Below, piece by piece: positions 3,128 to 52,457 of a DNA stretch of 56,711 nucleotides (positions are counted from its first letter, which is position 1; each line of letters starts with the position of its first letter). Source of the stretch: Rhodothermales bacterium. Lineage in GTDB: Bacteria > Bacteroidota > Rhodothermia > Rhodothermales > Bin80. Under the pieces are notes generated by a model that had not been told where the DNA came from, searched no databases, and saw nothing but the letters and a program-made list of their open reading frames with translations. Made by a program: the position numbers and the translations under genes. Location of the stretch: assembly GCA_012271185.1 (NCBI GenBank), contig JAAXGV010000096.1, forward strand, positions 1 through 56,711, written 5' to 3'.

Positions 3128-3282
3128 GACAGGCAAGATACGGTTTTTCCGATACGCACGCGCATCCCGCAGGGTTCAGGGTCGTGTACTTCTGAACATC
3201 ATTTCTGGTTCTCTCCATGCTTGTATGGAGAGACGGCGGCTTGTCTGGCAGCCCGCGGATAAAGCCGCTGGTGTAGCATGAC

Positions 3283-16250: not shown

Positions 16251-16766
16251 GATCCTGTTATTGCATGATCAGTTTTTAACCCGCGACAGCCCGGAGGGGT
16301 CCTGCTTCGGGCAGCCGCGGATACGTGCGGCTGCCAACCACACCCGCACAGGACGATGTTCTGGCATGGAGCTGTGCACAGTTGAGGAGGACTGCATCAA
16401 CGGCAACACGCAGCCACCGGAAAACCCTGCATCGCGTCCCAAGGCACACAACCTGCGGCCCGATGGCAACTGCTGCAGGTGTAACCTCACTCCGACGTGT
16501 GCTTGGGCAGCATCATATAACCCTTTTTCAGGCTATAATTCCCACGCTGAGGCATCCCTGCGCGAGGGATTTCAGGTCCGCCCGGCTACACCATCAGCGG
16601 CTGTCCGCACCATCACGCACCGCTGCAGTAGCGGGATTTTGTGTCGCAGGGATTGCTGTTGGGAGGAGCAGGACCGCTCTTGTGCCGGCCGTGGCATGAA
16701 GCCCGTTTCCATTCGCCAAAGATGACCAGTGCATCAGGCTGGTTCAGCCGCAAGGGGTGCCAAGCC

Positions 16767-17258
16767 TCAGTTGTTTTTACGGATCTCTATGGCTTTTTCC
16801 ACGATACCCGCAAGGTACTTGGAAATCCAGGCATAGCGCTCCTGGCTGCTACGCCCACCGGGGTTATAGCACTTCACGATACTCCAGAACCGCTGCCCCC
16901 TGAGGGAGAAATGCTTGAACGGATCGTAGCCTTTGGGAGCGATACGTCCGCTGGAGTCCTTTAATCCGTGGATTCGGATACCGGCGACACCCATACCCCT
17001 TTCCCACGACTGACAGATCTCATAGTTGATCCATTTGCGGCCAGCGGTGTTCTTACCAACAAGGACGATTGTGCAGGAGCGTTCTGCGAACTGGCTGTCG
17101 GTCCACCTCCTGATTGCACCACCTCCGCCCTTCGTTATCGCTTCCCAATCGTTGTCTTTTGCCGGCTTGTTTCCTTCAACGGCTCCAATGCTGCGAACCT
17201 GAGCAGCGCGCCAGCTATCCGGTTCGTAGTGGAAGCTGTAGAATACTTTCCGCGCCAG
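16767..17258 (-). CDS. ThsB-like TIR-domain protein (DUF1863-type), non-ATG start
   Basis: Hand translation of the minus strand gives (L)ARKVFYSFHYEPDSWRAAQVRSIG...CTIVLVGKNTAGRKWINYEICQSWERGMGVAGIRIHGLKDSSGRIAPKGYDPF. This matches the ThsB/DUF1863 pattern (KxVFxSFHY, RxWxxYEI, G(I/V)xIHxLKDxxG...KGxNPF). The frame is open from the TGA at 17277-17279 down to the stop at 16767. The ORF track shows only the C-terminal 75 aa. A CTG at 17256-17258 sits exactly where family members have their Met, and AAGGAGG lies 11 nt upstream. Confidence 0.75.
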   Translation of the reverse strand: MARKVFYSFHYEPDSWRAAQVRSIGAVEGNKPAKDNDWEAITKGGGGAIRRWTDSQFAERSCTIVLVGKNTAGRKWINYEICQSWERGMGVAGIRIHGLKDSSGRIAPKGYDPFKHFSLRGQRFWSIVKCYNPGGRSSQERYAWISKYLAGIVEKAIEIRKNN

Positions 17259-17276
17259 TCTTGTTATGTCCTCCTT

Positions 17277-17669
17277 TCAATTGAAGATGATGGCAATGCC
17301 GACCACGATAAGCATCGCACCGTAGAAGCCTGTAAGTGTTACGGAAAACATTGCACTGGGCCAGGTGCGATCCCGGCGAAACCTGCTTACATCCATGGAG
17401 AAGTCGATCTCATCCTTTTCCAGCACACGAACATGGTCGTAAAGCGTACGGAACAGACGCTCCTGCCACAGAAAGTAGCCGTCTAGACCCCAGAAGATCA
17501 GCACGGGAACCAACGTCACAAGTTCGAACCCAGGATTCCCACCTCTTGTCAGCAGAACAAACAGCGCGGCAGCCAAAGCCATGCTCCAGCTCTTCATGCG
17601 GAATGAATCAGCTCCAAGCCGGTTGACCACTCCTTGGATAAATTCGAGATGCTTGAGCTTTGCCTCCAT
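17277..17669 (-). CDS. small three-helix membrane protein, co-oriented partner of the TIR gene
   Basis: 130 aa from the ATG at 17669 (MEAKLKHLEFIQGVVNRLGADSF...); alternative upstream starts are at 17723 and 17843. Hydrophobic helices are WSMALAAALFVLL, LVTLVPVLIFWGLDGYFLW and FYGAMLIVVGIAIIF. The stop lies 18 nt before the TIR start. Confidence 0.6.
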   Translation of the reverse strand: MEAKLKHLEFIQGVVNRLGADSFRMKSWSMALAAALFVLLTRGGNPGFELVTLVPVLIFWGLDGYFLWQERLFRTLYDHVRVLEKDEIDFSMDVSRFRRDRTWPSAMFSVTLTGFYGAMLIVVGIAIIFN

Positions 17670-18371
17670 TTTGCGTATCGGTCTGGTCCATTCTGCCCGT
17701 AAAGCCAGCGCCCAGTCTCTCATGGAACGCGGTGCCATGCCCACGCAAACACAGCTGGCGGACATGCCACGCATGTGTGTCAACATGCAGAGCAGAAGCG
17801 GGGTTCCTGTCGCGCGACAGCCTGTCCGCTGCGCCGCGCACAACTTACGGGATAAGGGACTGACAACAGGCCGCAGGGTCGCTCAATGCTAATGGTGTTG
17901 AGACGTGCGCGCTCCTGTCACAGTCCTGTGAGCGCAGGTACGAGTGCTACGTGCCAGACCACCACCGCTCCTGATCATGAGCAAGCACGTTTCCATAAAG
18001 TTCGGCGCTATTCTGCTCGCCGGCTTGTGTCCGTGAAATCGGGTTCCTTGGCAAACGGTGGCCCTTGCTCATCGTGTTCGCTGTTTAAAGCCACGATCTC
18101 CGTCTCCCGCCCGATCCAGTGTTCGCCAGTAAAGCAGTTTCGAGCGCTTCAATCCCACAGCAATGGATCCGCTACTGCCGGACAGCGTCAGACGCCTTTC
18201 AACGGGCATGCAATGCGCCGGACCAGCCTGACACATCTGCGGATTCACACGAAGCAGGTGCGCGGGCCCTGCGCCTGTAAAGCGCCAGGACAAATGATTC
18301 GCACCACGCCCTGCGCGAACGCAACCCTATCGGTGTGTCTTTCGTAGAGAGTATGCACTCATAGTCAGTAA

Positions 18372-27782: not shown

Positions 27783-28045
27783 ATGCAGCTTAGTTTCACA
27801 GACCTCGAATACGGAAACAGGAAAACGAAGGGAGTTACACGCCAAACAGATACGAATAAATCTGGCACTGCAACTGAAGGATAGCAGGACTCAGCTAGCG
27901 CACAAGTTTGGGCCGATCCTCGGCTTTCCAAGCCGCAAGGTCGTCTTGGGCCCAAATTCTTCCCTATCTCGGCGCTGGTGCCTCTTTTTCACCCAGCACG
28001 CTGAAACCCCCGTTTCTTCCACGGACCCCTACGGTCTCAGGCACT
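27783..28045 (+). pseudogene. IS5-family transposase 5' remnant
   Basis: The ATG at 27783 opens MQLSFTDLEYGNRKTK (compare the IS5-group N-terminus M.QLSF.D.EY..KRK), with a stop after 33 codons. The downstream 27900-28045 belongs to the dispersed repeat family. A locally low-GC patch spans 27700-27900. Confidence 0.5.
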
Positions 28046-40785: not shown

Positions 40786-43710
40786 ATGGCGTTGCGTGCG
40801 CTGCCGGATTTTCTGGCCGCCTTGCGGTCCCAGTGCGAGGGGGAGGTCCGCACGGACGACTACAGCCGTATCCTGTACAGCACTGATGCGAGCATCTACC
40901 AGGTGATGCCGCACGGTGTGATGTTTCCGCGTTCCGCTGCGGATGTCCAGGCGGTCATCACACTGGCTGCGCAGCATGGCATCGCGCTCGTGCCCCGCAC
41001 AGGTGGCAGCAGCCTCGCCGGGCAGGCCATCGGGGAGGCACTGGTGATGGATTTCACGGCGCACCTGAACGGGATCCTGGAATACTCCCGGGAAGAGCAG
41101 TGGGTGCGTGTGGAGCCCGGCATCGTGCTGGACCAGCTGAACCTGGAGCTGGCATCCTCGGGGCTTCAGTTCGGACCGGACCCGGCCAGCGCCAACCGTG
41201 CTGCGATGGGTGGCATCGTGTCCAACAACTCCACAGGCAGCCACTCCATCTGCTACGGCATGACAGCGGACCATGTCTTGGCTATGAACGTGGTGCTCAG
41301 CGATGGATCCCGCACGCATCTGGGACCGGTGGAGGGTAATGCACTGGAGCAGTTTTCCAGGCGCAGCGGGCTGGAAGGTGCACTCTATCGGGGTCTTCAG
41401 GACCTGGTTGGCGCGCCTGCCAACAGGGAGACGATCCTGGAAGGCACACCGCGCCACTGGCGTCGCTGTGGTGGCTACAACCTTGACCGCTTTGTGGGTG
41501 CAGGTCCGTCTTTCCGATGGCCGCAGGATGAGCGCTTCAACCTGGCCAAGCTGGTTTGTGGCGCTGAGGGAACGCTGGCTGTTATTGAAGACGTGAAGCT
41601 GAACCTTGTCCCTGTGCCGCCGGCCAAGGGACTGGGCGTAGTGCACTTTGAGAGCATCCATGAGGCGCTCAGTGCTGTGCCCGCGATTCTGGAGGTGTCG
41701 CCCAGCGCCGTTGAGCTGCTGGACAGCCTGGGCCTGTCGCTGTGTCGCGGCGTGCCCGAGTATGCCCGGCTGCTCACCCGCTTTATCGAAGGCAGGCCTG
41801 ACTGCATACTGATCACCGAGTTCTGCGGATCAGACCAGGGCGAGGTGGCTGAGAAGGTGGACGCCCTTCGCAGGCACCTCCGGAGCCATGCATCAGGCAG
41901 CGTGGTCGCGGTCTTGGACCCGAAGCATCAGCAGGACGTGTGGAAAGTGCGCAAGGTGGGGCTGGGGCTGCTGATGAGCATCAAGGGCGACCACAAGCCG
42001 ATCCCGTTTATTGAAGACGCTGCTGTGCCTACGGAGCACCTTGCGCAGTACGTTCAGGAGATTGACCGCTTCTGCCAGGAGCGTGGTACGCGCGTAGCAT
42101 ACTATGCGCATGCCAGCGCCGGCTGCGTGCATATCCGGCCGCTGATCAACACGAAGGCCGCTGCTGAGCTTGAGAAGATCCCGGAGATCACCGCTTTCGC
42201 TGTCGGGCTTTTGCGCGGCTGCGGCGGCGCCCTCTCCAGTGAGCACGGCGATGGCCGCGCGCGCAGCTGGATGAACGAACGCTTCTTCGGACCGGCCCTT
42301 TACGGGCTGTACAAGGAGGTGAAGAAGCTCTTCGATCCGCACAATATCCTGAACCCGGGCAATGTGGTTGATGGCCCTCCGGTTACGGACAACCTGCGCT
42401 ACGGAGCAGACTATGGTGTGATTCCGCTGCCACTGAAGCTTGACTGGCATCAGGACATGGGCTTTGACCGTGCAGTGGAGATGTGCAACGGCGCCGGCAT
42501 CTGCCGCAAGGCGACGGCGGGTACAATGTGCCCGAGCTTTATGGCCACGCGGGAAGAGGAGCACTCCACGCGGGGTCGCGCCAATGCCCTTCGTGCCGCC
42601 CTGTCAGGAAGGCTGCCGCACAGCGAGCTCACCAGCCGCAGGATGTACGAGGTGATGGACCTGTGTGTGGAGTGCAAGGCATGCAAAGCCGAGTGTCCTT
42701 CCTCGGTGGACATGGCCAAGATCAAGTTCGAGTTTCTGGCCCAGTATCATGCCAGGCACGGCATACCGGTCCGGAGCCGTCTTTTCGGCCATGCCTGGCA
42801 GCTGGGACGCCTGGGCAGTGGCCCGCATGCGGGGCTTATCAACCGCATGCTGGGAAGCCGGGCGGTGCGTCACGGCCTGGAAGCGATGCTGGGCCTGAGC
42901 CGCCAGCGCACACTGCCTGCGTACGCCCGGGAGCCGTTTACACGATGGTTCCGGCGGCGGCGCCAAGGCGCTCAGAACGGCCGTCCGCAGGTCGTGCTGC
43001 TGAACGACACCTTTACGACCTGCCACGAGCCGGAGATTGCCATCAGCACTACGAAGGTTCTGGAGGCTGCAGGCTTTGAGGTTGTGCTTCCGGGTCACCG
43101 CTGCTGCGGACGGCCGATGATTTCCAAGGGCCTGGTTGATGCGGCCCGGCGTGCCGCACGCCATACTGTGGACCGGCTTGCGCCGTTTGCCAGGCGCGGC
43201 ATCCCGATCATCGGCTTGGAGCCCAGCTGCCTGCTGTCTTTGCGCGATGAGTATCTGTACCTCCTGCCGGACGATCATGCAGCGCAGCAGGTGGCCGCGC
43301 ATGCTGTGCTGTTTGAGGAGTTTCTGGCCCGTCTGGCTGATGAAGGGCAGCTTGCGCTGGCGTTTACGCGCACGGAACGCCGCGTGCTGCTGCACAGCCA
43401 CTGCCATCAGAAGGCACTGGTAGGGTCAGCCCCCGGCATGCGTGTGCTGTCGCTGCCCGAAGGCTATGATGTGCACGAGGTGGACTCAGGCTGCTGCGGC
43501 ATGGCCGGCTCGTTTGGATACGAGAAGGAGCACTACGATATTTCGGTGAAGATGGCTGAGCGCCGCCTTTTACCTGCCGTGCGCGAGGAGGAAGAAGACA
43601 CCATCCTGGTGGCTGCGGGGGTCAGCTGCCGCCACCAGATCAGGCATGGCTCGGGCCGCACAGCGTTGCATCCGGCACAGGTTGTCCATGGCGCGCTCCT
43701 TGCACCCTGA
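40786..43710 (+). CDS. FAD-binding oxidase fused to an Fe-S/CCG domain (GlcD-GlpC-like)
   Basis: The start is moved to the ATG at 40786 (MALRALPDF). It has an FAD PCMH domain (RTGGSSLAGQA), a ferredoxin-type cluster (CVECKACKAECP) and CCG motifs (HRCCGRP, SGCCGMAGSFG). Confidence 0.9.
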   Translation: MALRALPDFLAALRSQCEGEVRTDDYSRILYSTDASIYQVMPHGVMFPRSAADVQAVITLAAQHGIALVPRTGGSSLAGQAIGEALVMDFTAHLNGILEYSREEQWVRVEPGIVLDQLNLELASSGLQFGPDPASANRAAMGGIVSNNSTGSHSICYGMTADHVLAMNVVLSDGSRTHLGPVEGNALEQFSRRSGLEGALYRGLQDLVGAPANRETILEGTPRHWRRCGGYNLDRFVGAGPSFRWPQDERFNLAKLVCGAEGTLAVIEDVKLNLVPVPPAKGLGVVHFESIHEALSAVPAILEVSPSAVELLDSLGLSLCRGVPEYARLLTRFIEGRPDCILITEFCGSDQGEVAEKVDALRRHLRSHASGSVVAVLDPKHQQDVWKVRKVGLGLLMSIKGDHKPIPFIEDAAVPTEHLAQYVQEIDRFCQERGTRVAYYAHASAGCVHIRPLINTKAAAELEKIPEITAFAVGLLRGCGGALSSEHGDGRARSWMNERFFGPALYGLYKEVKKLFDPHNILNPGNVVDGPPVTDNLRYGADYGVIPLPLKLDWHQDMGFDRAVEMCNGAGICRKATAGTMCPSFMATREEEHSTRGRANALRAALSGRLPHSELTSRRMYEVMDLCVECKACKAECPSSVDMAKIKFEFLAQYHARHGIPVRSRLFGHAWQLGRLGSGPHAGLINRMLGSRAVRHGLEAMLGLSRQRTLPAYAREPFTRWFRRRRQGAQNGRPQVVLLNDTFTTCHEPEIAISTTKVLEAAGFEVVLPGHRCCGRPMISKGLVDAARRAARHTVDRLAPFARRGIPIIGLEPSCLLSLRDEYLYLLPDDHAAQQVAAHAVLFEEFLARLADEGQLALAFTRTERRVLLHSHCHQKALVGSAPGMRVLSLPEGYDVHEVDSGCCGMAGSFGYEKEHYDISVKMAERRLLPAVREEEEDTILVAAGVSCRHQIRHGSGRTALHPAQVVHGALLAP

Positions 43711-43756
43711 AAGTTCGTGAAAGAAGGGAGCTCCTGAAAGGCCCGTCCTGGGCTCA

Positions 43757-44206
43757 CACTCGCCTCGGCGCTGCTGCCTCTCGCTCACCCGGCGTTCTGA
43801 AATCCGCTGCTTCCGCGAGCTGCTAGCCCAGGAGAGTGTTGAGGGTAACCACCGCGCTGATTACGATAACGCTCATGCTGATAACCCACAGCAGGATCCG
43901 CATCTTACTGTCTATTACAGCATTCTGCATGTCCAGCTTGTTGTTCTGCGCTTCCAGTCGGGCATTTACGGCATCCAGCTTGGGTTCCATGGCGCCTTGG
44001 AATTGAGCGATAAGATTGGCACTGGCCATGGTTTGAAGTTCTTGAACGAAGGAGTAGGCCTCCTCCTCTTTCAGGCCCAGCTTCAGAAGCAGCAGAAACA
44101 GGTGCTTATCGTCCGGAGAAGGCCGCATCTCGGCCATTGTGAAGATACGTGGCGAAGGCTGCTGGTACCACCGCTCGGGTGCAAGGGTCGCAGGCGCTTC
44201 CCTGCG
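43757..44206. repeat. left copy of the roughly 450-bp direct repeat bracketing islet 2
   Basis: It aligns by eye with 49503-49947. The alignment covers a repeat-family segment, the whole 104-aa gene, and about 70 nt upstream including the hairpin CGCAGG-CGCTTC-CCTGCG. Confidence 0.85.
43823..44137 (-). CDS. tail-anchored coiled-coil membrane protein, copy 1
   Basis: 104 aa from the ATG at 44137 (MAEMRPSPDDKHLF...). The start is chosen because the paralog begins at the equivalent Met. The C-terminal TM helix is ILLWVISMSVIVISAVVTL. Architecture resembles DUF1640/XhlA-type proteins (architecture only). Confidence 0.7.
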   Translation of the reverse strand: MAEMRPSPDDKHLFLLLLKLGLKEEEAYSFVQELQTMASANLIAQFQGAMEPKLDAVNARLEAQNNKLDMQNAVIDSKMRILLWVISMSVIVISAVVTLNTLLG

Positions 44207-45136
44207 CCCTGACAGTCCGCGAAAGAAACGGGGTTTCTGAAAGACCCGTCCTGGGCTCAAACTCACACCCGCCTCGGCGCTGCATTTGGCAGGGTTGGCT
44301 ACCGATGAGCAGTTCGCCTATCCGAACTTCGTGAACCGTTGCAGAGTCCTCTCCGACGATAAGGGCACGGCCTGCCCGAACTTTGTGAACGAACTCACAA
44401 GTCGTATCAGTGCACTGAAGATGATCCCCTACCATCGAGGAGCCGCGAAAGGTGGCACTGACAGAGCGGTCGGCACCCCGCTGCTCCACTTCCACCCCGA
44501 TAGATCCTTTTAGTAACATCTACCATCTCCTTCGCATTAGCCCTTCCGGGAATATGTCTATTGTATGGAAACACTGAGAAACAATTCGAGATCACGAGTG
44601 GGCGGTTTTTTTCGGTCGCCGTGTGTAGGGCCAACGACATTCGTCTGGGTGATGATCGATCGGATCCCTTGCATCAGCTTCGTCTTGCCCCCGGGGGGCG
44701 GGCGACCAGTTCTCGGCTTCCTGCAGGGAGGGTCACAGTTCACTCTGGATCGGCCTGCTACCGGGGTCCCTACTTGAGGCAGGGTGACCCGCCAACTGGC
44801 TGGCCAATCCACTGCACAGCAGCTGGCAAACAATGCGTCTCTTGGGGGCGTGCTTCCCTGGCTGGCGGACTTCTATGCCGGACTTGGGTATAAAAATGAC
44901 GTGGGAGTCGGGTGCGGAATTTGGCCCTCCTGCGATTCACAGGGGATTGTCCGCTTATTCGCAGGCGCGGTCGTATCTTGCGCTTCCTTGGGTGCCACCT
45001 GTGCAGGAAGGAAACCCGGCCCGAATACTCGGTGGAAACTGGAAGGCCCACGCCCTTGCCTTGGTCCTGCCCTATATTGGGGTCCATCGTTCAATGCAAA
45101 CTGTACTGACAAGGCTACGGCTAAAAAGCCAACGAA

Positions 45137-47143
45137 ATGAAAATTGAGATCATCCTGGCAAACGTGGAGGCAGGCAAGATTGCTCTGCCGGAGTTTCAGC
45201 GTGGGTATGTGTGGAAACGGAGGCAGGTACGGGAGTTCTTCGACTCGCTCTATCGAAGGCACCCGGTTGGGGGGCTGCTTACTTGGCTTACTACGCGCGA
45301 CGATGGCACCGCTACAGAACTCCTGCTGGACGGCCAGCAACGGGTGACCTCGCTGTACGGTGTAATCAAGGGCCGATCGCCGAATTTCTTCAGCGGAGAC
45401 GACACGGCGTTCAGCAATCTGTACTTCCACGCTATGCGCGAGAGATTCGAGTTCCTACAGCCAATCAAGATGAAGGATGATCCGCTCTGGTTCGATGTGA
45501 CGAGGGTAATGCAAGCGGGCGCAGGCGGGGTTGCAAGCCTAATAAACAGGCAGCTTGCGGGGGTAAGCGAACTCCATGACTTCGAGTTTCAGATGCAGAT
45601 CATGAATCGCCTCCTTTGGCTTCTGGGAGTGACCGAGGTGAACCTTCACGTCGAGCAGATCACGGATAATAACCAGACTGTCGACACGGTCGTGAACATC
45701 TTCAACCGACTCAACAGTGCAGGTACCAAGTTGTCGCGCGGTGATCTGGCGCTTGCGAGAATCGCTGCGAAGTGGCCCAGGGTCCGCGATAAGATGGGGC
45801 GGCACACCGAGGAGTGGCAGAAACACGGGTTCCACTTCACTCTGGACTGGCTGCTGAGATGCGTGAATGCTGTCGTGAATGGGGAAGCAGCGTTTCAGTA
45901 CCTGCACGACACCCCGGGTCACGAGGTGAAGGATGGCCTGCAACGCACCGTCAAACATGTCGATGCCGTGCTGAATAAGATTTCGGATCGGCTGGGGCTG
46001 GACCATAATCGCGTTCTTTTCGGGCGCTTCTCAATTCCTGTCCTAGTTCGCCATTTGGCGTTACGCCCTCCCGGATTGATGAGTATTGATGAGTGGAATC
46101 AGCTGCTCTACTGGTTCTTGCAGGCGGGAATGCAGGGCCGCTTCTCCGGGACGATGGAGACCACGATCAAGCAGGATTTGGTGTCAGTGGACGGGACACT
46201 AAACGGAATAGAGCGGTTGATCGCGGACATAGGGACAAAGTGGGGGCGGCGGCACGTGGCTGCCTCCGACTTCGATACCTGGTCCCGCGGAGCCCGGTTC
46301 TACCCGGCACTCTACTGGATGACTCGCGTGGGCGGGGCAAGAAATTTCTGCGACGGCATGGAGCTCAAGTCTGGCCTGCTGGGCAAGGGCGCCCAGCTGC
46401 AGGTACACCACATCTTCCCCAAAGCAGTGCTCTATAAGGCTGGATACGAGAGAGCGCAGGTCAACGCACTCGGCAACTTCTGCTTCCTCACTGCCGATTG
46501 CAACTTTTGGATCGGAGCAGCCTGTCCCGCAGAGGAATCTCCCCATAAGAAGGGCAAGCGCGGCTCTGACCTTCGCCGCGTCTGCCTCGCGGGCTACTTC
46601 GCCTTTGTGCAGCAAAAGACCCCCGGAGTTCTGGAGTCCCAGTGGATTCCGATGGACGAGGAGCTATGGAAAGTCGAAAACTATCCGGCATTCCTTGAAG
46701 CCCGACGTAATCTCCTGGCCGACGCCGCTAACCAGCATCTGACCGCCCTGTATCCGGGGCATGCCGAGGCGCTGGATACGGCTGACGGGCCACTTCGGGC
46801 CGCAGTTCCGCCCGCGTCACGGCCACATATCTCCAGTGCGGACGAGGAGAAAGTGCTCAATGAGCTTCAAGACTGGATGTCCAGGCAGTGGCTGCCCTCT
46901 GGCGAGTTTGGCTACGAGCTTCGCGGCATTACCACCGATCGGGCCAAGGCAATAATTGATCTGGCTTGGCCGAGCGGCCTCCTGGAGGGCCGGGGACGTC
47001 CTGTCGCACTTCTCCTGAACGAATCTGCGGAGACGTACCGGACAGTCAGCCAATCCGGATTCGACTGCTACACGAGCGTGGAGGCGTTCAAACAGTACGT
47101 GATCAACGAGATCACCGGAGAAACCACCGCTGCAACCGCCTGA
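45137..47143 (+). CDS. DUF262-DUF1524 (GmrSD-like) nuclease with a C-terminal extension
   Basis: 668 aa. DUF262 motifs are IALPEFQRGYVW and LLDGQQRVTSLY. The His-Me/DUF1524 region is LQVHHIFPKAVL...NALGNFCFLTADCN. A further 190 aa or so are unassigned. Confidence 0.85.
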   Translation: MKIEIILANVEAGKIALPEFQRGYVWKRRQVREFFDSLYRRHPVGGLLTWLTTRDDGTATELLLDGQQRVTSLYGVIKGRSPNFFSGDDTAFSNLYFHAMRERFEFLQPIKMKDDPLWFDVTRVMQAGAGGVASLINRQLAGVSELHDFEFQMQIMNRLLWLLGVTEVNLHVEQITDNNQTVDTVVNIFNRLNSAGTKLSRGDLALARIAAKWPRVRDKMGRHTEEWQKHGFHFTLDWLLRCVNAVVNGEAAFQYLHDTPGHEVKDGLQRTVKHVDAVLNKISDRLGLDHNRVLFGRFSIPVLVRHLALRPPGLMSIDEWNQLLYWFLQAGMQGRFSGTMETTIKQDLVSVDGTLNGIERLIADIGTKWGRRHVAASDFDTWSRGARFYPALYWMTRVGGARNFCDGMELKSGLLGKGAQLQVHHIFPKAVLYKAGYERAQVNALGNFCFLTADCNFWIGAACPAEESPHKKGKRGSDLRRVCLAGYFAFVQQKTPGVLESQWIPMDEELWKVENYPAFLEARRNLLADAANQHLTALYPGHAEALDTADGPLRAAVPPASRPHISSADEEKVLNELQDWMSRQWLPSGEFGYELRGITTDRAKAIIDLAWPSGLLEGRGRPVALLLNESAETYRTVSQSGFDCYTSVEAFKQYVINEITGETTAATA

Positions 47144-47379
47144 TGAATTCCCCATCGAGCCTCATACCTTCGTGGGAATCAGCACCACACCGCCTGACGA
47201 GTTGAATTCCTTGCCGATTCCGACATCTCGGATCACCCTATGTGGGCACGCCGCCGGCCCAAGAGGAGGCCCCGATGGCCGAGAGCGACAGACACAGCTG
47301 CGTGTTGGGGATTGTTTTGAGATATCCCCGATGATCTGCCCTGTAACAACTATTCCTTAGGATAAGTTTAGAGAGGCTG

Positions 47380-47560
47380 ACGCGAGGAATCCAAGCGATG
47401 TCTACTACACACCCGTCGTGATCGTGCACCACCTCGCGAAGAGCATCCTGCGTACCAACGCCATTTGGCCGAGATCGCAAAGACGGATCCCGGAAGAGCG
47501 ACCCAGCACTTTCTTTCCTTTGCCGTGGCCAGCCCGGCGTGTGGGGGCGCCCTCCTCTTC
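47380..47560 (+). pseudogene. possible remnant of an N6-adenine DNA methyltransferase (weak)
   Basis: DVYYTPVVIVHHLAKSIL (compare the G.YYTP..IV motif) lies at 47397 onward. In a shifted frame, DPGRATQHFLSFAV (compare motif I, DPACGSGHFL) starts at 47486. No intact ORF. Confidence 0.25.
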
Positions 47561-48073
47561 CCTTAGGTAGCGGAGATCCTAGCTGAGCGAGTTGTGCTCT
47601 TCCTCGCTAATCATTGCCGAGGCGCTCGATCGGATCGAAGTGGCACCACCGCGGGACGAAATCAGCGATCGTACCCGGGAGAAGGTGATGGACAGCCTCC
47701 AGTCGGGTACTAACGGTTGCCTGAGTCGCTGCGCGAAGATACCCGGTTACTGTCGGGTGGGTAGCGTGACACATGTCGTCATGGGCGCTCCGTCCACACG
47801 GGTTGTGAATACCGCACATCGCTTCAAGGTGCGCGTACCACATAAGATCAATTGCGGTCGCCTGACCATGCTTTCCAATGCAACGCCGTGCACATATCAC
47901 CCCGCCCCGGAACATTGCCATGCTACACCAGCCCGTGGAAGAAACGCCCGACAATCCGGGCGGACAAGTAACCCCCGATCTATGGGCAAATAGGCGGGAA
48001 CCGAGGCTTTTCCCTGCTGCTACAACGATAATCCCTGCTGATTAAATTATTATTACAGCAAGGGAAGAAATTT

Positions 48074-48466
48074 ATGTTTCACCACATTATTCTGGTGGCC
48101 ACTCTGTCAGTCACCACTGCCACATCGGTCAGCGAGCAAGAAGTCTGCAAGCCCGCCCACGAAAAGGAAGCCCGTCAGCGGGTTGCTGTTCTGAACTCCA
48201 ATGGGGAGACGTTGGTCAGGTTCACCGAGTTCTATGTGTTTCTGGAACCGGTGCTCTGGCACACCATCGACTACGAGCGCAAGCGGGTCCTAACGATAGC
48301 ACTCGCGGTCTATCATAACTGCGTCTGGCGACCCGCCAACGTTAAGGATCGGAGGGGCCGCCCGGAAAAAAAAAAAAAGCGCGACAACTGGCTGGTCACG
48401 GTCAAAGACGGCCGGACAGGAAAAAAGCTGGGCTCCATTGGACTGCTCGGGTTCAAGGTTCACTGA
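48074..48466 (+). CDS. small secreted hypothetical protein with a Lys-rich insert
   Basis: 130 aa with a signal-like N-terminus (MFHHIILVATLSVTTATSVS). The upstream region is low in GC. An A13 tract at 48366-48378 encodes EKKKK. Confidence 0.5.
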   Translation: MFHHIILVATLSVTTATSVSEQEVCKPAHEKEARQRVAVLNSNGETLVRFTEFYVFLEPVLWHTIDYERKRVLTIALAVYHNCVWRPANVKDRRGRPEKKKKRDNWLVTVKDGRTGKKLGSIGLLGFKVH

Positions 48467-48611
48467 GTAACCTTTAGGTCCAGCCACGCCTGAAGCATCA
48501 CCTCGCCATACTCCGAACTCGTCGTCGCTGATAGCCGCTGAGTGCTCCTCCGCGGACTAGTCAAGGTATGCCCGAGCCGCCCTCCTCGTTCGGCGTGTGA
48601 TCAGGCGAGTG

Positions 48612-49185
48612 CGGATTTTGGCACCCTTGGGGTTGTGATGGCGTGCGCGAACTGATCTGGTGCGGGGAAAATCAGAACCAACTGAAGGGCCTCGTTGCGA
48701 GTCGCCACAGTATGCGGACGCTGGGCAGAGCAAAGGAGTCGGCTCATGCGCAACGACGAGTGCGACCCTGATTATCCAGAGGAGCACAACCCGCGTGCAC
48801 GGGCCTATGTTGATCCGGGTGCCAAGTAGCTCGGGTTTTCGCGTCAGATTGATTCGATTGCCCGTCCTGCCCCAAATTGCGCGTGAACCGCGCAGGCCGG
48901 ATCAGTCAAGTCCCAATCGTGCTGCAAATTGGTTTTTGCTGGTGTGAGGAGGCAGCCACGGAGCCGGCGCCGCTGGACGAGGTGGAGCAGTAGCTGATGG
49001 AGGTTGGGGTCGAGGCACAAGCGGTGGTAACCGACAATGACTACCCCTCGAATCAGACTATGATGGGCATGCAGGCGCGGAAGCTGCGGAGCTACCTGAG
49101 CAAGCCCCACCAAGGCACCGGAAGTGGAATCGTAATGTGCACCAGCCGGCCTATGTCCACCTGGCAGTGGACCCGGGGCAGGTGA
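48612..49185 (+). pseudogene. IS5-family (IS427/IS1031-like) transposase remnant
   Basis: Across shifted frames are TVCGRWAEQ (compare W.TVY.RF.RW), LIIQRSTTRVHG (compare fIDsT.vRaHq), PSSSGFRVRLI (compare RSRGG..TKIH), and AVVTDNDYPSNQ...ARKLRSYLSKPH (compare vvaDkGYDs..lr..l...gi...ip). An in-frame TAG interrupts it. Confidence 0.5.
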
Positions 49186-49259
49186 TTTGCTGCATCAGCG
49201 CAGCGAACAGATGAAGCGGAATTCGCATACCGGCTCGTGACCGGAGGCTGCGCCGAGTT

Positions 49260-49560
49260 CATGTCTCTGACAGGAATGATGTGCGAAAACGGCTATTTAT
49301 CCAAACCGCCACCTTCAACCTTGGTTTTACGACGCGCAAGCGGTGCGGAGCCGGACCTCACACAGGGTCGCGGCGGCGTGCGCTTGCAAGGCATGTCAGT
49401 CCGCTTATATTGCGTGTTCTTCGCCGCTCTGTGGACTTTTTGGCTCGCTCCTCGGCTTTTCAAGTCGCGGAACACGCCTTGGACCCACGTTCTTCCCTAT
49501 CCCGGCACTGGCGCCTCTTTTCACCCGGCACCCTGAACCCCCATTTCACTCTCCACAGAT
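49260..49560 (+). repeat. dispersed-repeat-family copy (IS5-like 5' segment), truncated at the stop of gene copy 2
   Basis: 49440-49560 aligns by eye with 27900-28025 (..CTCCTCGGCTTTTCAAG.CGC...CTTGG.CCC...TTCTTCCCTATC.CGGC.CTGG.GCCTCTTTTCACCC.GCAC.CTGAA.CCCC). Confidence 0.5.
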
Positions 49561-49947
49561 TGCTAGCCCAAGAGAGTGTTGAGAGTGAACACTGCGCTGA
49601 TTACGATAACGCTCATGCTGATAACCCACAACTGGATCCGCATCTTGCTTTCTATTGCGGCGCTCTGCGTGTCCAGCTTGTTGTTCTGCGCTTCCAGTCG
49701 GGCATTTACGGCATCCAACTTGGACTCCATGGAGCCTTGGAATTGAGCGATAAGATTGGCACTGGCCATGGTTTGGAGTTCTTGAACGAAGGAGTAGGCC
49801 TCCTCCTCTTTCAGGCCCAGCTTCAGAAGCAAAAGAAACAGACGCTTATCGTCCGGAGAAGGCAGCGTCTCGGCCATAGGTGAAGATACGTGGCATAGAC
49901 TGCTGATACCACCGGAAGAGCGCAAGGGTTGCAGGCGCTCCCCTGCA
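49503..49947. repeat. right copy of the roughly 450-bp direct repeat bracketing islet 2
   Basis: See the entry for 43757-44206. The coding part is about nine-tenths identical by eye. Confidence 0.85.
49563..49877 (-). CDS. tail-anchored coiled-coil membrane protein, copy 2
   Basis: 104 aa from the ATG at 49877 (MAETLPSPDDKRLF...). 93 of 104 residues are identical to copy 1, counted from the translations. Confidence 0.7.
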   Translation of the reverse strand: MAETLPSPDDKRLFLLLLKLGLKEEEAYSFVQELQTMASANLIAQFQGSMESKLDAVNARLEAQNNKLDTQSAAIESKMRIQLWVISMSVIVISAVFTLNTLLG

Positions 49948-49971
49948 ACACGGCATGAACATTGCTTTGCA

Positions 49972-50014
49972 GAAAGTCTGAACCAGCGCAGGAATAGGCG
50001 CTAGTTCAGACTTC
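49972..50014 (-). terminator. long stem-loop beginning at the MFS stop codon
   Basis: GAAAGTCTGAACCAGCGC (49972-49989) pairs with GCGCTAGTTCAGACTTC (49998-50014). That gives about 17 bp with one mismatch and one bulge, and an 8-nt loop. There is no U-tract, so it is not a canonical intrinsic terminator. Confidence 0.3.
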
Positions 50015-51606
50015 TAAGCGCCACTGTCGGCGTCCTTGGCCTGCAGCTTAACGGGCCTGTATCCGCCTGCCATGCGGTCCCGGACAAACATGATGCCAAA
50101 GACCAGGACAAGGATCAGCCCGTATGGAGCAAGGGTGCGAAATGACTGCCTTCCGCCATAGTTGTCCGCAGGATTAAGCAGCGCCTGGGCTTCCTGCACC
50201 AGCGGATCATCAAGCCCAGTACCGGCGATTTCGCGCAGCAGCTCCCCTGTTCTGCCAGGCGGCAGCATAGCCCGGTCTTCGAGCATGAACCCCACCTCCC
50301 TCAGCGCCTCCACCTTCATCTCGTAGTTCTCCGGTCTCAGGGCGACATCCATGGTATCCAGCGTATACCAGATCTCCCACAGCGCTTCTTCGTATGCATC
50401 GTCCCTGTTGATGGGGTCAACGACGGCCTTGATCGCCTCAACAGTCGCCATGATGTCTTCCGTCTGCGGTCCTGAGGCCAAGGCGGGAAGCTCCTCTACA
50501 GCCCGGTCAAGAACCTCCCTGGTGGCAGTCTCCGGCAACTCACTGTGCCCCTCGATGTCCGCGACGCTTCCCAGCCACGGTGTAACCAGGAAGGATGCAA
50601 GCATGCCGACAGCACCCATGACGCCAAGGCCCAGCGCACCGCTTTTCGGGTTGCGTTCTGACACAAGCCCCAGCATCGTAGGCCAGAAGTAGGCAATGCC
50701 GATGGCCCAGACGGCGGCTGTGACAAGCGCCATGGTTAGAGTTTCCGCCTTGCTGAACAGATATAGCCCCACAACAGCCAGTATGGACCCGAAAAAGAGG
50801 ATACCGGTCGGTGTCAGCAGGCGTACCACGGGCGGCGCCAGAAGGCGCAGCGTCCCCATGATGCCGAAGATGAACCCAAACACCAGAAGTCCGTGCAGCC
50901 CCCCGGCTTCCAGCACAGGCGGGACCCATGTAACGGGCGGGAGCTCCATGGAAGCCGTCAGCAGCATCATGGGCAGCATGACGATCATAATGGGTGCAAA
51001 GAGTGCTTTGAAGGACTGGCCCACAGAGATGCCGGCGCTGACACCTTCCGTCTGCGGGAAGGGTTCCATCAGCATCATGATGCCGTACCCCAGTGCAGGC
51101 ACCAGAATCAGAAGCAGCTGGCCCCGCCAGCCAACACCAAGATTGGCAAAGAAGAGTGCCAGGATGATGGCGGCCAGGAGGTTGCCATACGGAAACCACA
51201 TATGGAAGTGGTTGAGCTTTGACGTCTTGTTATCGGGGTAGAGTGCCGCCACCAGCGGGTTGCATCCGGCTTCCACCAGCCCTGCTCCTAGGCCGCAGCA
51301 CAGAGAACCCGCTACGGCCATCACATAGCCCTGCGATGTCATGATCAGGATCGCGCCCGCAACATGGCCTGCGAAGGCGCCACGCACGATCCATCGCATG
51401 CCTATGGTGTCGCACAGCGGCGAAAAGATGGCCTGGCTGATAGTAAAGCCAATGAAGAACACCCCCGTGAAGACGCCAAGTTCGGCATTGGTGAGCGCGA
51501 ACTCCTGCTTCACCGAGAAGGCGATGCCGGCAAGCACCGTGAAGGCGAAAGCCGTAGTAAGCAGCGCCGCACAACTGCCCCAAAAAAGCTTTTCTCTGTT
51601 GATCAT
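50014..51606 (-). CDS. MFS transporter with a C-terminal soluble insert plus an extra TM helix
   Basis: 530 aa. Twelve TM helices of MFS type are followed by an acidic segment of about 150 aa and a final helix (LAPYGLILVLVFGIMFV). Confidence 0.85.
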   Translation of the reverse strand: MINREKLFWGSCAALLTTAFAFTVLAGIAFSVKQEFALTNAELGVFTGVFFIGFTISQAIFSPLCDTIGMRWIVRGAFAGHVAGAILIMTSQGYVMAVAGSLCCGLGAGLVEAGCNPLVAALYPDNKTSKLNHFHMWFPYGNLLAAIILALFFANLGVGWRGQLLLILVPALGYGIMMLMEPFPQTEGVSAGISVGQSFKALFAPIMIVMLPMMLLTASMELPPVTWVPPVLEAGGLHGLLVFGFIFGIMGTLRLLAPPVVRLLTPTGILFFGSILAVVGLYLFSKAETLTMALVTAAVWAIGIAYFWPTMLGLVSERNPKSGALGLGVMGAVGMLASFLVTPWLGSVADIEGHSELPETATREVLDRAVEELPALASGPQTEDIMATVEAIKAVVDPINRDDAYEEALWEIWYTLDTMDVALRPENYEMKVEALREVGFMLEDRAMLPPGRTGELLREIAGTGLDDPLVQEAQALLNPADNYGGRQSFRTLAPYGLILVLVFGIMFVRDRMAGGYRPVKLQAKDADSGA

Positions 51607-51842
51607 CAGACTCCCTGGTTATGCGCCTCTACGGGCGCGTGGACATCTACGATTAGAACCGCTCAAGGATAAAGCACAAGGACCTGACAATGCAAGTCGT
51701 TTCAGGCTGAAGGCGGCAGCTGCTACTGAGGCATGCTGCTGCATCCTGTGGGTTGGGGTGTGCCGAATGCGGTGGCGAACAAGAACAGAAGCGTGCACGA
51801 GGCATACAACCTCACTCCTGCAACTTAGCCCTGGTAGATACT

Positions 51843-52457
51843 ATGCGCACGACAGCAACAGCAGCAGCACTTCTTGCGATCCTCCTCCTTGGTGCGGAGC
51901 TGGCCCACGCCCAACGTCCGGCCTCGCCTCTCGGCATGGCCGCTATTCCGGCCTCGCCTCGCGGCATGGCCGCTACGCAGATTGGCAAAGCATGGATCAC
52001 GGTAGACTACGGCCGTCCGATTCTCCGTGGCCGCACGGAGATATTTGGGTCAGGAGACTCCTACGGGGACCGTGTTATCGGAAATGCGTCGGTCTGGCGT
52101 GTGGGAGCCAACAAGTCCACCCGCCTGAATACGGAGACGGACCTGCAGTTTGGCAGCGAGACCCTTGCTGCCGGCGAGTACAGCGTATTCGCGGCGCTGG
52201 CAGAAGGCGAATGGACGCTGATATTCTCCAGTCACGAGGCGAAAAGCTCTGGTCGTGATGATAGCCCGGGTATCTGGGGAGCTTACGGATACTCGGAGGA
52301 TCAGGACGTGCTGCGGGTGCCGATGCAACTGCACAAGAGTGACGCATCGGTTGACCAGTTCACCATAGGCTTCCTGAACGTGACCAGCGAGGGTGGTACG
52401 CTGGCGCTAATGTGGGAGCACACGAAGGCCACAGCAGACTTCCGCGTCGCCGAGTAG
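51843..52457 (+). CDS. DUF2911-domain secreted protein
   Basis: The start is moved to the ATG at 51843 (MRTTATAAALLAILLLGAELAHA). WITVDYGRPILRGRTEIFG...VWRVGANKSTRL...AGEYSVF matches the DUF2911 pattern. Confidence 0.75.
   Translation: MRTTATAAALLAILLLGAELAHAQRPASPLGMAAIPASPRGMAATQIGKAWITVDYGRPILRGRTEIFGSGDSYGDRVIGNASVWRVGANKSTRLNTETDLQFGSETLAAGEYSVFAALAEGEWTLIFSSHEAKSSGRDDSPGIWGAYGYSEDQDVLRVPMQLHKSDASVDQFTIGFLNVTSEGGTLALMWEHTKATADFRVAE
51918..51977. repeat. in-frame 30-bp tandem duplication
   Basis: CCGGCCTCGCCTCTCGGCATGGCCGCTATT is followed directly by CCGGCCTCGCCTCGCGGCATGGCCGCTACG. These encode PASPLGMAAI and PASPRGMAAT. Confidence 0.9.

What the first reader, a model, noticed from the sequence alone, without database searches (positions are those of the whole stretch)
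43757..49947. A 5.3-kb islet bracketed by 450-bp direct repeats, each carrying a complete copy of a small gene
The segments 43757-44206 and 49503-49947 align along their whole length. Each contains the same repeat-family segment cut at the same nucleotide (...|TGCTAGCCCA), a full 104-aa ORF (93 of 104 residues identical), and about 70 nt of 5' sequence with a conserved hairpin. Between them lie a DUF262-DUF1524 nuclease, degenerate methylase-like and P-loop-like debris, a small A13-containing gene and an IS5-family pseudogene. Long direct repeats around defence-type cargo suggest one of two histories. A circular element carrying its own copy of the small gene may have integrated by single crossover, or a duplication was followed by insertion. 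Either way, recombination between the repeats would excise the islet precisely.
Basis: seen in the sequence. Interest (0 to 1): 0.7.

Follow-up and report, generated by a model that had tools for sequence, protein, structure and literature searches.

The report
Old gene duplicates bracketing a defence islet
A 6.3-kb stretch found only in this Rhodothermales lineage carries a BrxU/GmrSD-type anti-phage nuclease gene between two old, still-intact copies of a small membrane-protein gene; it is a real but fairly ordinary eroded defence islet, not a demonstrably excisable element.

Summary
The direct repeat is real. It spans 43821-44205 and 49561-49946 (386 bp, 90.2% identity, BLAST E 3e-144), not 450 bp. 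The extra 64 nt on the left are two differently typed copies of a dispersed ~105-nt intergenic repeat, only ~59% alike.

Each repeat holds an intact 104-aa ORF on the minus strand. dN/dS is 0.21 and dS is 0.23, so the copies are old and both are under purifying selection.

In about 20 Rhodothermales relatives, the FAD/Fe-S oxidase and MFS genes abut tail to tail with no small gene between them. The whole 43711-49974 block is therefore lineage-specific.

The cargo is one intact BrxU/HEC-05-like GmrSD nuclease gene, an orphan ORF with an A13 tract, and about 2.8 kb without detectable genes. The claimed IS5, methylase and P-loop remnants got no support. There is no integrase, transposase or tRNA.

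The 5' end of copy L joins a second copy of the oxidase's last codons plus the first half of the downstream repeat, at a 12-nt microhomology (44194-44283). That favours a local 501-bp tandem duplication followed by cargo insertion over integration of a foreign circle.

Independent assemblies confirm the structure. No deletion hybrid of the small protein was found in public data. One mosaic allele hints at gene conversion.

Interest is low to moderate.

The parts
40795..43710 (+). Left core flank: FAD-linked oxidase / Fe-S / CCG-domain gene. Its last codons (GCG CTC CTT GCA CCC TGA, 43693-43710) are re-used at the duplication junction.
   Evidence: Pfam FAD_binding_4, FAD-oxidase_C, Fer4, CCG. 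It is syntenic in about 20 Rhodothermales. The C-terminal ...GAL(L/V)..* is conserved in relatives.
43712..43821 (+). Dispersed intergenic repeat, 'a-type' copy. It lies between the oxidase stop and the stop of small gene L.
   Evidence: nhmmer E 3.9e-18 with a profile of the family. Other copies are at 2366-2471, 27922-28025 and 49454-49559, with a partial copy at 44237-44282. There is no Rfam match and only weak consensus structure.
43821..44205 (-). Repeat copy L: small-gene module. The CDS is 43826-44137 (104 aa; stop 43823-43825). The 68-nt leader carries an inverted repeat at 44189-44206.
   Evidence: dN/dS against copy R is 0.21. The protein was called identically in ENA assemblies (P0001).
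44194..44283 (+). Junction segment A': a second, 82%-identical copy of 43693-43774. That source segment is the oxidase's last codons, its stop, and the 5' half of the a-type repeat. A' is joined to the 5' end of module L through the microhomology GCGCTYCCYTGC.
   Evidence: Local alignment. The 19-nt part overlapping the oxidase end was matched by 0 of 20,000 random window 19-mers. See also blastn and nhmmer.
44284..45136 (.). A 68-nt piece (44920-44986) is 82% identical to sequence upstream of a GmrSD orthologue in L174.
   Evidence: No Pfam, NCBIfam or PADLOC hit. blastn to L174.
45137..47143 (+). Intact 668-aa BrxU/HEC-05-like GmrSD-family gene: DUF262 with FFDS and DGQQR motifs, plus a C-terminal HHIFPK...N...N motif.
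   Evidence: Pfam GmrSD_N 3e-27. PADLOC HEC-05 1.2e-34. PDB 7P9K at 4e-10, and 2.6e-27 with a profile. Full-length homologues number in the thousands.
47144..48073 (.). Cargo stretch without a detectable gene.
   Evidence: Stop-to-stop pieces gave no Pfam hit at E<=1, and the two longest gave no PADLOC hit at E<=0.1.
48074..48466 (+). Orphan 130-aa ORF with a hydrophobic N-terminus and an A13 run (48366-48378) encoding KKKK.
   Evidence: Only itself was found among 5.8 billion clusters. The tract length is the same in L001, L002 and L185.
48467..49449 (.). Cargo stretch claimed to be an IS5 pseudogene; not supported.
   Evidence: Pfam and NCBIfam found nothing, including on a frameshift-stitched translation at E<=10. 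tblastn against plasmids found no transposase.
49454..49559 (+). Dispersed intergenic repeat, complete 'b-type' copy, abutting the stop of small gene R.
   Evidence: nhmmer E 2.7e-22. It is 81% identical to 27918-28016. Its tail is 80% like that copy but only 59% like the tail next to gene L.
49561..49946 (-). Repeat copy R: small-gene module. The CDS is 49566-49877 (104 aa). The inverted repeat is at 49929-49948. Homology to the paralogous module in L004 runs on to about 49962, so R keeps the native 5' flank.
   Evidence: The protein occurs in ENA assemblies as P0254.
49975..50012 (.). Stem-loop of about 15 bp directly after the MFS stop codon. It is the presumed native terminator and marks the right edge of the lineage-specific block.
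   Evidence: Read from the sequence. Relatives have 13-60 nt between the two genes, and L024 has a hairpin there.
50014..51606 (-). Right core flank: MFS transporter gene.
   Evidence: Pfam MFS_1 1.4e-19. It is adjacent to the oxidase in relatives.

Best explanation
This is an eroded, integrase-free defence islet in the terminator gap between two convergent core genes. Its bracketing 'direct repeats' are two old paralogous copies of a small gene, not attachment sites.

Proposed history:
1. A ~400-bp module had settled downstream of the oxidase, next to a dispersed intergenic repeat. The module is a small tail-anchored coiled-coil protein gene with its ~75-nt leader.
2. A 501-bp unit was duplicated head to tail by illegitimate recombination at a 12-nt microhomology. 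The unit comprised the last codons of the oxidase, the repeat element and the small gene. The novel joint survives at 44194-44212.
3. About 5.2 kb of foreign DNA landed inside the second unit, between the half repeat (ending at 44283) and gene copy R. It carried a BrxU-like type IV restriction gene that travels as a single-gene cassette between defence islands and mobilisable elements, and it perhaps ended in its own repeat element.
4. The rest of the cargo has decayed or is orphan sequence.

Both small-gene copies stay under purifying selection. Today the nuclease presumably restricts modified phage DNA.

Recombination between the copies is possible: the identical runs are 55, 48, 42 and 37 nt long. 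It is hindered by 10% divergence and would leave one hybrid gene.

Shown: the repeat, the insertion relative to relatives, gene identities, selection on the copies, and the junction sequence. Inferred: the order of events, the mechanism of cargo entry, and defence activity.
For: - Repeat and ORFs.
- Selection on the copies: dN/dS 0.21, dS 0.23. 14 of 25 substitutions are synonymous, against 23% expected (P 3e-4).
- Oxidase and MFS are adjacent, with no small gene, in about 20 relatives.
- Segment A' (44194-44283) aligns at 82% to 43693-43774. The alignment starts inside the oxidase ORF, whose A-L-(L/V) residues there are conserved in relatives.
- A/A' divergence (18%) equals the neutral divergence of the gene copies (leader 19%, pS 0.20), as one event would predict.
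- Copy R, not copy L, retains about 16 nt of 5' flank shared with the paralogue in L004.
- The nuclease is BrxU/HEC-05-like (bioRxiv 10.1101/2024.01.29.577857).
- Its orthologues (74-78% aa, ~80% nt) sit beside relaxase/TraG genes, type I R-M systems, integrase and transposases. Nucleotide homology is confined to 45133-47174.
- No tRNA gene, integrase or transposase was found.
- Independent assemblies confirm the layout.
Against: - The repeat element next to copy R is a complete b-type copy (80% like the one at 27922). It is not the a-type tail that a simple tandem duplication predicts (59% to the tail next to L). An extra replacement or repeat-to-repeat conversion must be assumed.
- The a-type repeat may naturally begin with ...GCNCCCTGA. 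In that case A' would be just another copy, not a copy of the oxidase end. Only two a-type copies are available, so this cannot be excluded.
- No relative shows the intermediate states (single gene, or tandem pair without cargo).
- The nuclease's C-terminal DUF1524 domain is not recognised by Pfam.
- Defence activity is untested.
Confidence: 0.5

Rival explanations
1. Single-crossover integration. The chromosome had one small gene between the oxidase and MFS. A circular element carrying its own diverged copy plus the nuclease cargo recombined with it, leaving hybrid copies on both sides.
For: - The copies are in direct orientation, and the cargo lies exactly between them.
- The 10% divergence could be pre-existing divergence between donor and recipient.
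- The small-gene module occurs at 80-88% nt identity in other contexts in the same metagenomes, so diverged donor copies exist.
- The nuclease's orthologues ride on mobilisable elements.
- This model explains without further assumptions why a different (b-type) repeat element sits next to copy R.
Against: - The supposed circle would have to carry, next to its gene copy, a sequence 82% identical to the chromosome's oxidase end plus the first half of the downstream repeat.
- No replication, transfer or recombinase gene, or recognisable remnant of one, lies in the cargo.
- No copy of the cargo was found at another site in the collections that could be searched. The same-sample ENA assemblies could not be searched by DNA.
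- No single-copy ancestor has been seen.
Confidence: 0.2
2. Two independent arrivals. The ~400-bp small-gene module (with the tip of a repeat element at its 3' end) is itself a copy-and-paste unit that lands in intergenic gaps. Two copies and the nuclease accumulated separately in a local insertion hotspot.
For: - The module has sharp ends, about 12 nt past the stop and 75-95 nt upstream of the start. It occurs in at least four contexts at 80-90% nt identity.
- Family members elsewhere lie between convergent genes (L090), beside IS630 fragments (L088), and in the variable gap next to the same MFS gene in L014.
- Many homologues sit on very short contigs.
- The neighbourhood is variable in relatives.
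Against: - L and R are each other's closest relatives (90%, against 80-88% to the other copies).
- No terminal inverted repeats, target duplications or associated transposase are seen.
- A' is not explained.
- No relative was found in IMG/VR viral contigs by a single-protein search, which reaches close relatives only.
Confidence: 0.12
3. An active excisable cassette. The two gene copies serve as long recombination sites that let the population gain and lose the defence cargo reversibly by RecA-mediated crossover.
For: - The identical runs of 55, 48, 42 and 37 nt exceed the usual minimal pairing length (established knowledge of RecA recombination).
- One allele in public data (P0253) is R-type at both ends and L-type at residues 49 and 52. 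This is the pattern of a conversion patch between the copies.
Against: - All four independent assemblies that cover the region carry the islet.
- The two 90% protein clusters contain no simple crossover hybrid, and ten modelled deletion hybrids are absent from about 15 billion proteins.
- 10% divergence and dS 0.23 show long coexistence without homogenisation or loss.
- P0253 lies on a 582-nt contig and could be an assembler chimera.
Confidence: 0.06

Closest known systems
BrxU / HEC-05 subgroup of GmrSD-family type IV restriction enzymes (PDB 7P9K; Picton et al. 2021, as cited in bioRxiv 10.1101/2024.01.29.577857)
   Same: - Single polypeptide with an N-terminal DUF262 domain carrying FFDS-like and DGQQR motifs.
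- A long linker and a C-terminal His-Me/HNH-like motif.
- Best PADLOC model is HEC-05 (1.2e-34). The profile hit to 7P9K is 2.6e-27.
- Found in defence islands and on mobile elements.
   Different: - Only the N-terminal ~240 residues align to BrxU.
- Pfam does not recognise DUF1524.
- The protein is 668 aa against 587 aa, with a further conserved C-terminal ~170 residues of unknown role.
- It is not embedded in a BREX or Hma system here.
- Activity is untested.
Defence islets in variable hotspots between conserved core genes
   Same: - Lineage-specific block between two syntenic core genes.
- Slightly lower G+C (57.4% against 59.2%).
- A defence gene shared at ~80% nt identity with unrelated contexts.
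- Neighbouring gaps are also variable in relatives.
   Different: - Very small: one working defence gene.
- No integrase or tRNA anchor.
- Bracketed by paralogous gene copies rather than by short att repeats.
Integrative genomic islands / ICEs with att direct repeats
   Same: Direct repeats at both ends of foreign cargo.
   Different: - The repeats are 386 bp and only 90% identical, and they are expressed genes under selection.
- No integrase, excisionase or tRNA target is present.
- No empty-site or circle junction has been found.
Microhomology-mediated tandem duplication followed by insertion
   Same: - Head-to-tail copy of a 501-bp unit, with a joint at a 12-nt microhomology.
- Equal divergence of both duplicated parts.
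   Different: The second unit no longer has the expected repeat tail, because the cargo and a complete repeat of another subtype replace it.
REP/BIME- or MITE-like dispersed intergenic repeats
   Same: - About 105 nt long with several diverged copies.
- Two copies lie in gaps between convergent genes (27922-28025 and the oxidase-MFS gap).
- Short internal hairpin.
   Different: - No Rfam family matches.
- All five copies are in one orientation.
- No terminal inverted repeats or target duplications are seen.
- Consensus structure is weak (-7.8 kcal/mol, one covarying pair).

Membership tests
GmrSD family (BrxU/HEC-05 subgroup) | N-terminal DUF262 (GmrS) domain | tested here: met
   Pfam PF03235 at 3e-27, residues 6-209. 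Profile hit to BrxU 7P9K at 2.6e-27.
GmrSD family (BrxU/HEC-05 subgroup) | DGQQR hydrolysis motif and (R)LFDS-type nucleotide-binding motif in DUF262 | tested here: met
   LLLDGQQRVTS and REFFDSLYRRHP are present in the translation. D65, G66, Q67, Q68, R69, F35 and S37 are invariant in 23 homologues. The motifs are named in bioRxiv 10.1101/2024.01.29.577857.
GmrSD family (BrxU/HEC-05 subgroup) | C-terminal DUF1524 (GmrD) His-Me/HNH nuclease domain | tested here: inconclusive
   Pfam gives no PF07510 hit even at E<=10 on residues 301-668. The motif VHHIFPKA...NALGNFCFLT...N is invariant or nearly so across homologues (H424, I426, F427, N443, N447, N456).
GmrSD family (BrxU/HEC-05 subgroup) | Restricts modified phage DNA | not testable with these tools
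   This needs plaque assays.
Integrative element (genomic island / ICE / prophage) with att repeats | Integrase or other site-specific recombinase within or beside the element | tested here: not met
   No recombinase-family hit was found among the islet's ORFs and stop-to-stop pieces scanned with Pfam, NCBIfam and PADLOC. The two flanking genes are an oxidase and an MFS transporter.
Integrative element (genomic island / ICE / prophage) with att repeats | Empty site or excised circle detectable in relatives or the population | tested here: not met
   Relatives have an 'empty' site but also lack both repeats. There are no hybrid proteins of deletion or circle type. Read-level data are not available.
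Composite transposon / IS5-family element | Transposase gene or recognisable remnant | tested here: not met
   No Pfam or NCBIfam hit at E<=1-10, including on a stitched translation. tblastn against plasmids gave only an unrelated LuxR hit at E 0.2.
Small-protein family of the repeats (uncharacterised; no Pfam, PHROG or PDB entry) | PDDKRLF..LL...GL..E.AY.FVQE...MA..NLIA+FESKLDA head, KLDAQN-type coiled-coil repeats, C-terminal W + transmembrane helix | tested here: met
   Profile search found 128 clusters at E<=1e-3; alignment A6. AF2 predicts helix 8-19 plus one long helix 24-103, pLDDT 76. No Pfam, PHROG or PDB match was found.

The most novel reading that the evidence does not exclude
The ~400-bp small-gene module may act as portable homology. 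Copies scattered in intergenic gaps would let the population capture, exchange and shed defence genes by ordinary homologous recombination, without any integrase. The module is a gene for an uncharacterised tail-anchored coiled-coil protein, with its leader and the tip of a dispersed repeat. The mosaic allele P0253 would be a trace of that traffic.
Probability: 0.08. Interest if true: 0.6.

Novelty: new member of a known kind. Interest (0 to 1): 0.3.

Why it matters
It gives a clean, small example of how a defence gene can sit in a bacterial chromosome without any mobility gene. The cargo lies in a terminator gap between convergent core genes, inside a local duplication whose junction is still legible.

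It also flags two uncharacterised items that may merit follow-up in Rhodothermales:
- a widespread family of small tail-anchored coiled-coil proteins that turns up in variable regions and at contig breaks;
- a ~105-nt dispersed intergenic repeat.

None of this overturns current views. The nuclease belongs to a known family, and the flanking repeats are not a new kind of recombination site on present evidence.

Tried and rejected
- **Assembly artefact:** rejected. Overlapping independent contigs L001, L002 and L185 match at 99.97-100%.
- **IS5 pseudogene at 48.5-49.3 kb:** motif-by-eye stitching looked suggestive. Pfam at E<=10 and tblastn against 72,556 plasmids found nothing.
- **Methylase and P-loop remnants at 44.2-45.1 kb:** no hit in Pfam, NCBIfam or PADLOC.
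- **Structured RNA or riboswitch in the conserved leader:** no Rfam hit at E<=1, and folding is no better than shuffles.
- **Nucleotide-level constraint or gene conversion in the central part of the gene:** third-position differences are 1/34 against 10/70 (Fisher P 0.10). Third positions vary normally once L004 and L007 are included. Not claimed.
- **Small protein as DUF1640, XhlA or holin-like:** my recollection only. No Pfam, PHROG, PDB-sequence or Foldseek support.
- **Phage origin:** The nuclease has only 41-56% relatives there.
- **Closer relatives or empty sites:** the JGI metagenome scan returned nothing nearer than 78%.
- **Right junction in other assemblies:** exact look-ups of the MFS protein and of P0002 failed.
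- **Compositional anomaly:** weak. G+C is 57.4% against 59.2%, tied with another region.
- **Repeat-family consensus structure:** weak.

Full report
**Observation**

- The repeat finder, MAFFT and blastn agree on one long direct repeat: 43821-44205 against 49561-49946. It is 386 bp at 90.2% identity (E 3e-144) and has no third copy in the 56.7-kb window.
- Each copy holds an intact 104-codon ORF on the minus strand (43826-44137 and 49566-49877). 93 of 104 residues are identical.
- The 68-nt leader is 81% identical. The five bases around the stop are identical. Similarity then collapses on both sides.
They are two copies of a dispersed ~105-nt intergenic repeat.
- nhmmer finds that repeat at 2366-2471, 27922-28025, 43712-43821 and 49454-49559, plus a half copy at 44237-44282. 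All are on the plus strand.
- The two copies beside the genes differ in subtype. The tail next to copy R is 80% identical to the copy at 27922 but only 59% identical to the tail next to copy L.
- The 'conserved hairpin' exists as an inverted repeat at the outer edge of the leader: CGCAGG-N6-CCTGCG at 44189-44206 and TTGCAGG-N6-CCTGCAA at 49929-49948. It has one compensatory change.
- The leader as a whole does not fold better than shuffled sequence, and Rfam finds nothing.
- Independent ENA assemblies reproduce window 42872-48443 (L001, L002; 100%) and 46154-49831 (L185; one mismatch in 3678 nt). Only 49831-50013 lacks direct independent confirmation. The copy-R protein is nevertheless present in ENA assemblies as P0254.

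**Setting**

- The oxidase gene retrieves Rhodothermales MAGs; the closest is 78% identical in protein.
- In about 20 of these genomes, and in the nearest metagenome contig, the oxidase and MFS genes are convergent neighbours. The gaps run from roughly 0 to about 90 bp, for example 13 nt in L043 and about 60 nt with a hairpin in L024. L008 is the exception at about 500 bp.
- A profile of the small-protein family finds no member between the two genes in any relative.
- In the window, a ~15-bp stem-loop (49975-50012) follows the MFS stop directly. The lineage-specific block is therefore 43711 to about 49974 and includes both small-gene copies.
- G+C is slightly low: 57.4% against 59.2%.
- The window has no tRNA gene.

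**The cargo**

- The only sizeable gene is 45137-47143 (668 aa). Evidence for its family:
  - Pfam finds GmrSD_N (DUF262, 3e-27).
  - PADLOC's best model is HEC-05 (1.2e-34).
  - The only solved relative is BrxU 7P9K (4e-10; 2.6e-27 with a family profile).
  - The preprint that defined HEC-05 states that it is essentially BrxU, a GmrSD-like type IV restriction enzyme.
- The FFDS and DGQQR motifs are present and invariant among homologues. Pfam does not detect DUF1524, but VHHIFPKA...NALGNFCFLT...N is invariant.
- Thousands of full-length homologues exist across phyla.
- The closest (74-78% aa, ~80% nt) lie next to relaxase/MobC/TraG genes, type I R-M systems, an integrase and transposases. One identical protein occurs in three different contexts.
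- Nucleotide homology to those loci is confined to 45133-47174. The gene therefore moves essentially as a single-gene cassette.
- The 130-aa ORF with the A13 run (48366-48378) is an orphan.
- The remaining ~2.8 kb yields nothing. The 'methylase-like', 'P-loop-like' and 'IS5' readings got no support from Pfam, NCBIfam or PADLOC. For the IS5 stretch, a frameshift-stitched translation also drew nothing from Pfam at E<=10 or from tblastn against all PLSDB plasmids.

**The repeated gene**

- The 104-aa protein has no Pfam, NCBIfam, PADLOC, PHROG or PDB match.
- A profile search of 1.84 billion representatives finds 128 clusters of 60-200-aa proteins. They share three features:
  - a head PDDKRLF..LL...GL..E.AY.FVQE...MA..NLIA+FESKLDA;
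  - a variable number of KLDAQN-type coiled-coil repeats;
  - a C-terminal W plus transmembrane helix.
- AlphaFold predicts a short helix and one long helix (pLDDT 76). Foldseek finds nothing.
- At the DNA level, the gene with its ~75-95-nt leader and ~12 nt past the stop forms a sharply bounded module. It recurs at 80-88% identity in other contexts in the same metagenomes:
  - L004-L006;
  - L007, beside mfd, where it is frameshifted, and the frameshift recurs in three contigs.
- More distant members occur in three kinds of place:
  - between convergent genes (L090);
  - next to IS630 fragments (L088);
  - in L014, in the variable gap on the other side of the same MFS gene, near what looks by eye like a TnpB/IS605 OrfB-type fragment.
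- Between copies L and R, dS is 0.23 and dN/dS is 0.21. 14 of 25 changes are synonymous against 23% expected (P 3e-4). Both copies have been kept functional for a long time.

**How the structure arose**

- The most informative feature is the sequence just beyond the 5' end of copy L.
- 44194-44283 aligns at 82% to 43693-43774. That source segment is the last six codons and stop of the oxidase (GCG CTC CTT GCA CCC TGA) followed by the first half of the a-type repeat.
- The A-L-(L/V) residues encoded there are conserved in relatives. At least the start of this stretch is therefore native oxidase sequence.
- At the joint, the sequence follows copy R up to GGCGCTYCCCTGC and then switches to the oxidase end. 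The switch lies in a 12-nt microhomology shared by both parents.
- Copy R keeps about 16 further nucleotides of 5' flank that are shared with the paralogue in L004. Copy L does not.
- The divergence of the A/A' pair (18%) equals the neutral divergence of the gene copies (leader 19%, pS 0.20).
- Together these are the expected marks of a head-to-tail duplication of a 501-bp unit (oxidase end + repeat + gene). The cargo would then have entered the second unit between 44283 and copy R.
- What does not fit is the repeat element beside copy R. It is a complete b-type copy rather than the a-type tail.
- Two explanations are possible. The cargo may have brought its own repeat and replaced the tail, for instance by recombination anchored in the repeat on one side and illegitimate joining on the other. 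Alternatively, the tail was later converted. I cannot decide between them.
- I also cannot exclude that a-type repeats naturally begin with ...CCCTGA, which would weaken the junction argument.
- Integration of a circle carrying its own gene copy remains possible. It needs that circle to carry a look-alike of this locus's oxidase end, and it has no mobility gene to show for itself.

**Excision**

- The longest identical runs (55, 48, 42 and 37 nt) are long enough for RecA-type recombination. The 10% divergence should suppress it strongly (established knowledge).
- The product would be oxidase-repeat-hybrid gene-MFS, not the ancestral junction.
- The two 90% clusters around the copies contain only five sequences. 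None is a simple crossover hybrid. Ten modelled deletion hybrids are absent from the 15-billion-protein collection.
- One member, P0253, lies on a 582-nt contig. It is R-type at residues 4, 5, 12 and 70-97, but L-type at residues 49 and 52, and it has one private change.
- Because the outgroups have S52, this looks like a short conversion patch from L into R in a co-occurring strain. An assembler chimera cannot be excluded.
- All four assemblies that cover the region carry the islet.

**Comparison and verdict**

- The nuclease is a new member of the BrxU/GmrSD kind. The N-terminal features are met; the C-terminal domain is seen only as a motif.
- The locus is a small defence islet in a variable neighbourhood. 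Five of thirteen relatives in which both genes were found have 2-6 kb inserted on the other side of the MFS gene.
- It fails the tests for an integrative element and for a transposon.
- The bracketing repeats are paralogous genes of an uncharacterised family. They most likely descend from a local duplication.
- This is real and tidy but not surprising. The uncharacterised small-protein module is the only part with some discovery potential.

Noticed in passing
window 2366-2471, 27922-28025, 43712-43821, 44237-44282, 49454-49559: A dispersed ~105-nt intergenic repeat family. All copies are on the plus strand. The copy at 27922-28025 and the copy directly after the oxidase stop lie in gaps between convergent genes. 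There are two subtypes. No Rfam family matches, and the family is absent from the relatives' loci.
   Followed up: partly
L004 1205-1592; L007 4235-4622: The small-gene module recurs at 80-88% nt identity in other contexts in the same metagenomes. The L007 copy, beside mfd, has extra coiled-coil repeats and a frameshift that removes the transmembrane helix. The same frameshifted protein type (P0255) is found on three contigs.
   Followed up: partly
protein P0253 (ENA, 582-nt contig; DNA not fetched): Mosaic allele of the small protein: R-type at both ends, L-type at residues 49 and 52, plus a private V89A change. It is either a gene-conversion patch between the two copies in a co-occurring strain or an assembler chimera.
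   Followed up: partly
relatives L008, L010, L014, L028, L043 (between the MFS gene and the homologue of window 51753-52457): The gap on the other side of the MFS gene is 147 bp in the window and 0.2-0.5 kb in eight relatives, but 2.3-6.3 kb in five others. The neighbourhood is therefore a recurrent insertion hotspot. L024 carries a distant DUF262 gene there (16641-17678).
   Followed up: partly
L014 18271-18615 (minus strand): A distant member of the small-protein family (114 aa, profile E 9e-17) lies in that variable gap of a Rhodothermaceae MAG. About 0.8 kb away is an ORF (16834-17439) whose N-terminus looks TnpB/IS605 OrfB-like by eye.
   Followed up: no
window 48366-48378: An A13 homopolymer lies inside an orphan 130-aa ORF with a signal-peptide-like start. 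The tract length is identical in four assemblies, so no phase variation is seen. Two independent contigs (L001, L002) both end 65 nt downstream, at 48443.
   Followed up: partly
L172, L173, L174: One identical GmrSD-like protein (P0132, 78% to the window's) sits in three different contexts: a chromosomal island with ParE and transposase fragments, a relaxase/MobC/TraG element, and beside a type I R-M system. This indicates recent horizontal spread of the single gene.
   Followed up: partly
window 51917-51975: A perfect-register 30-nt tandem duplication (97% identical) lies inside the N-terminal region of ORF 51753-52457. It repeats the peptide PASP(L/R)GMAA.
   Followed up: no
window 2802-3022: A run of degenerate 21/33-nt repeats (GGTCGATGCGGCC...) overlaps an ORF on the minus strand (2663-3136).
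   Followed up: no
window 44920-44986: A 68-nt stretch upstream of the nuclease gene is 82% identical to sequence upstream of the orthologue in L174 (7571-7637). It may be a conserved promoter or leader travelling with the gene.
   Followed up: no
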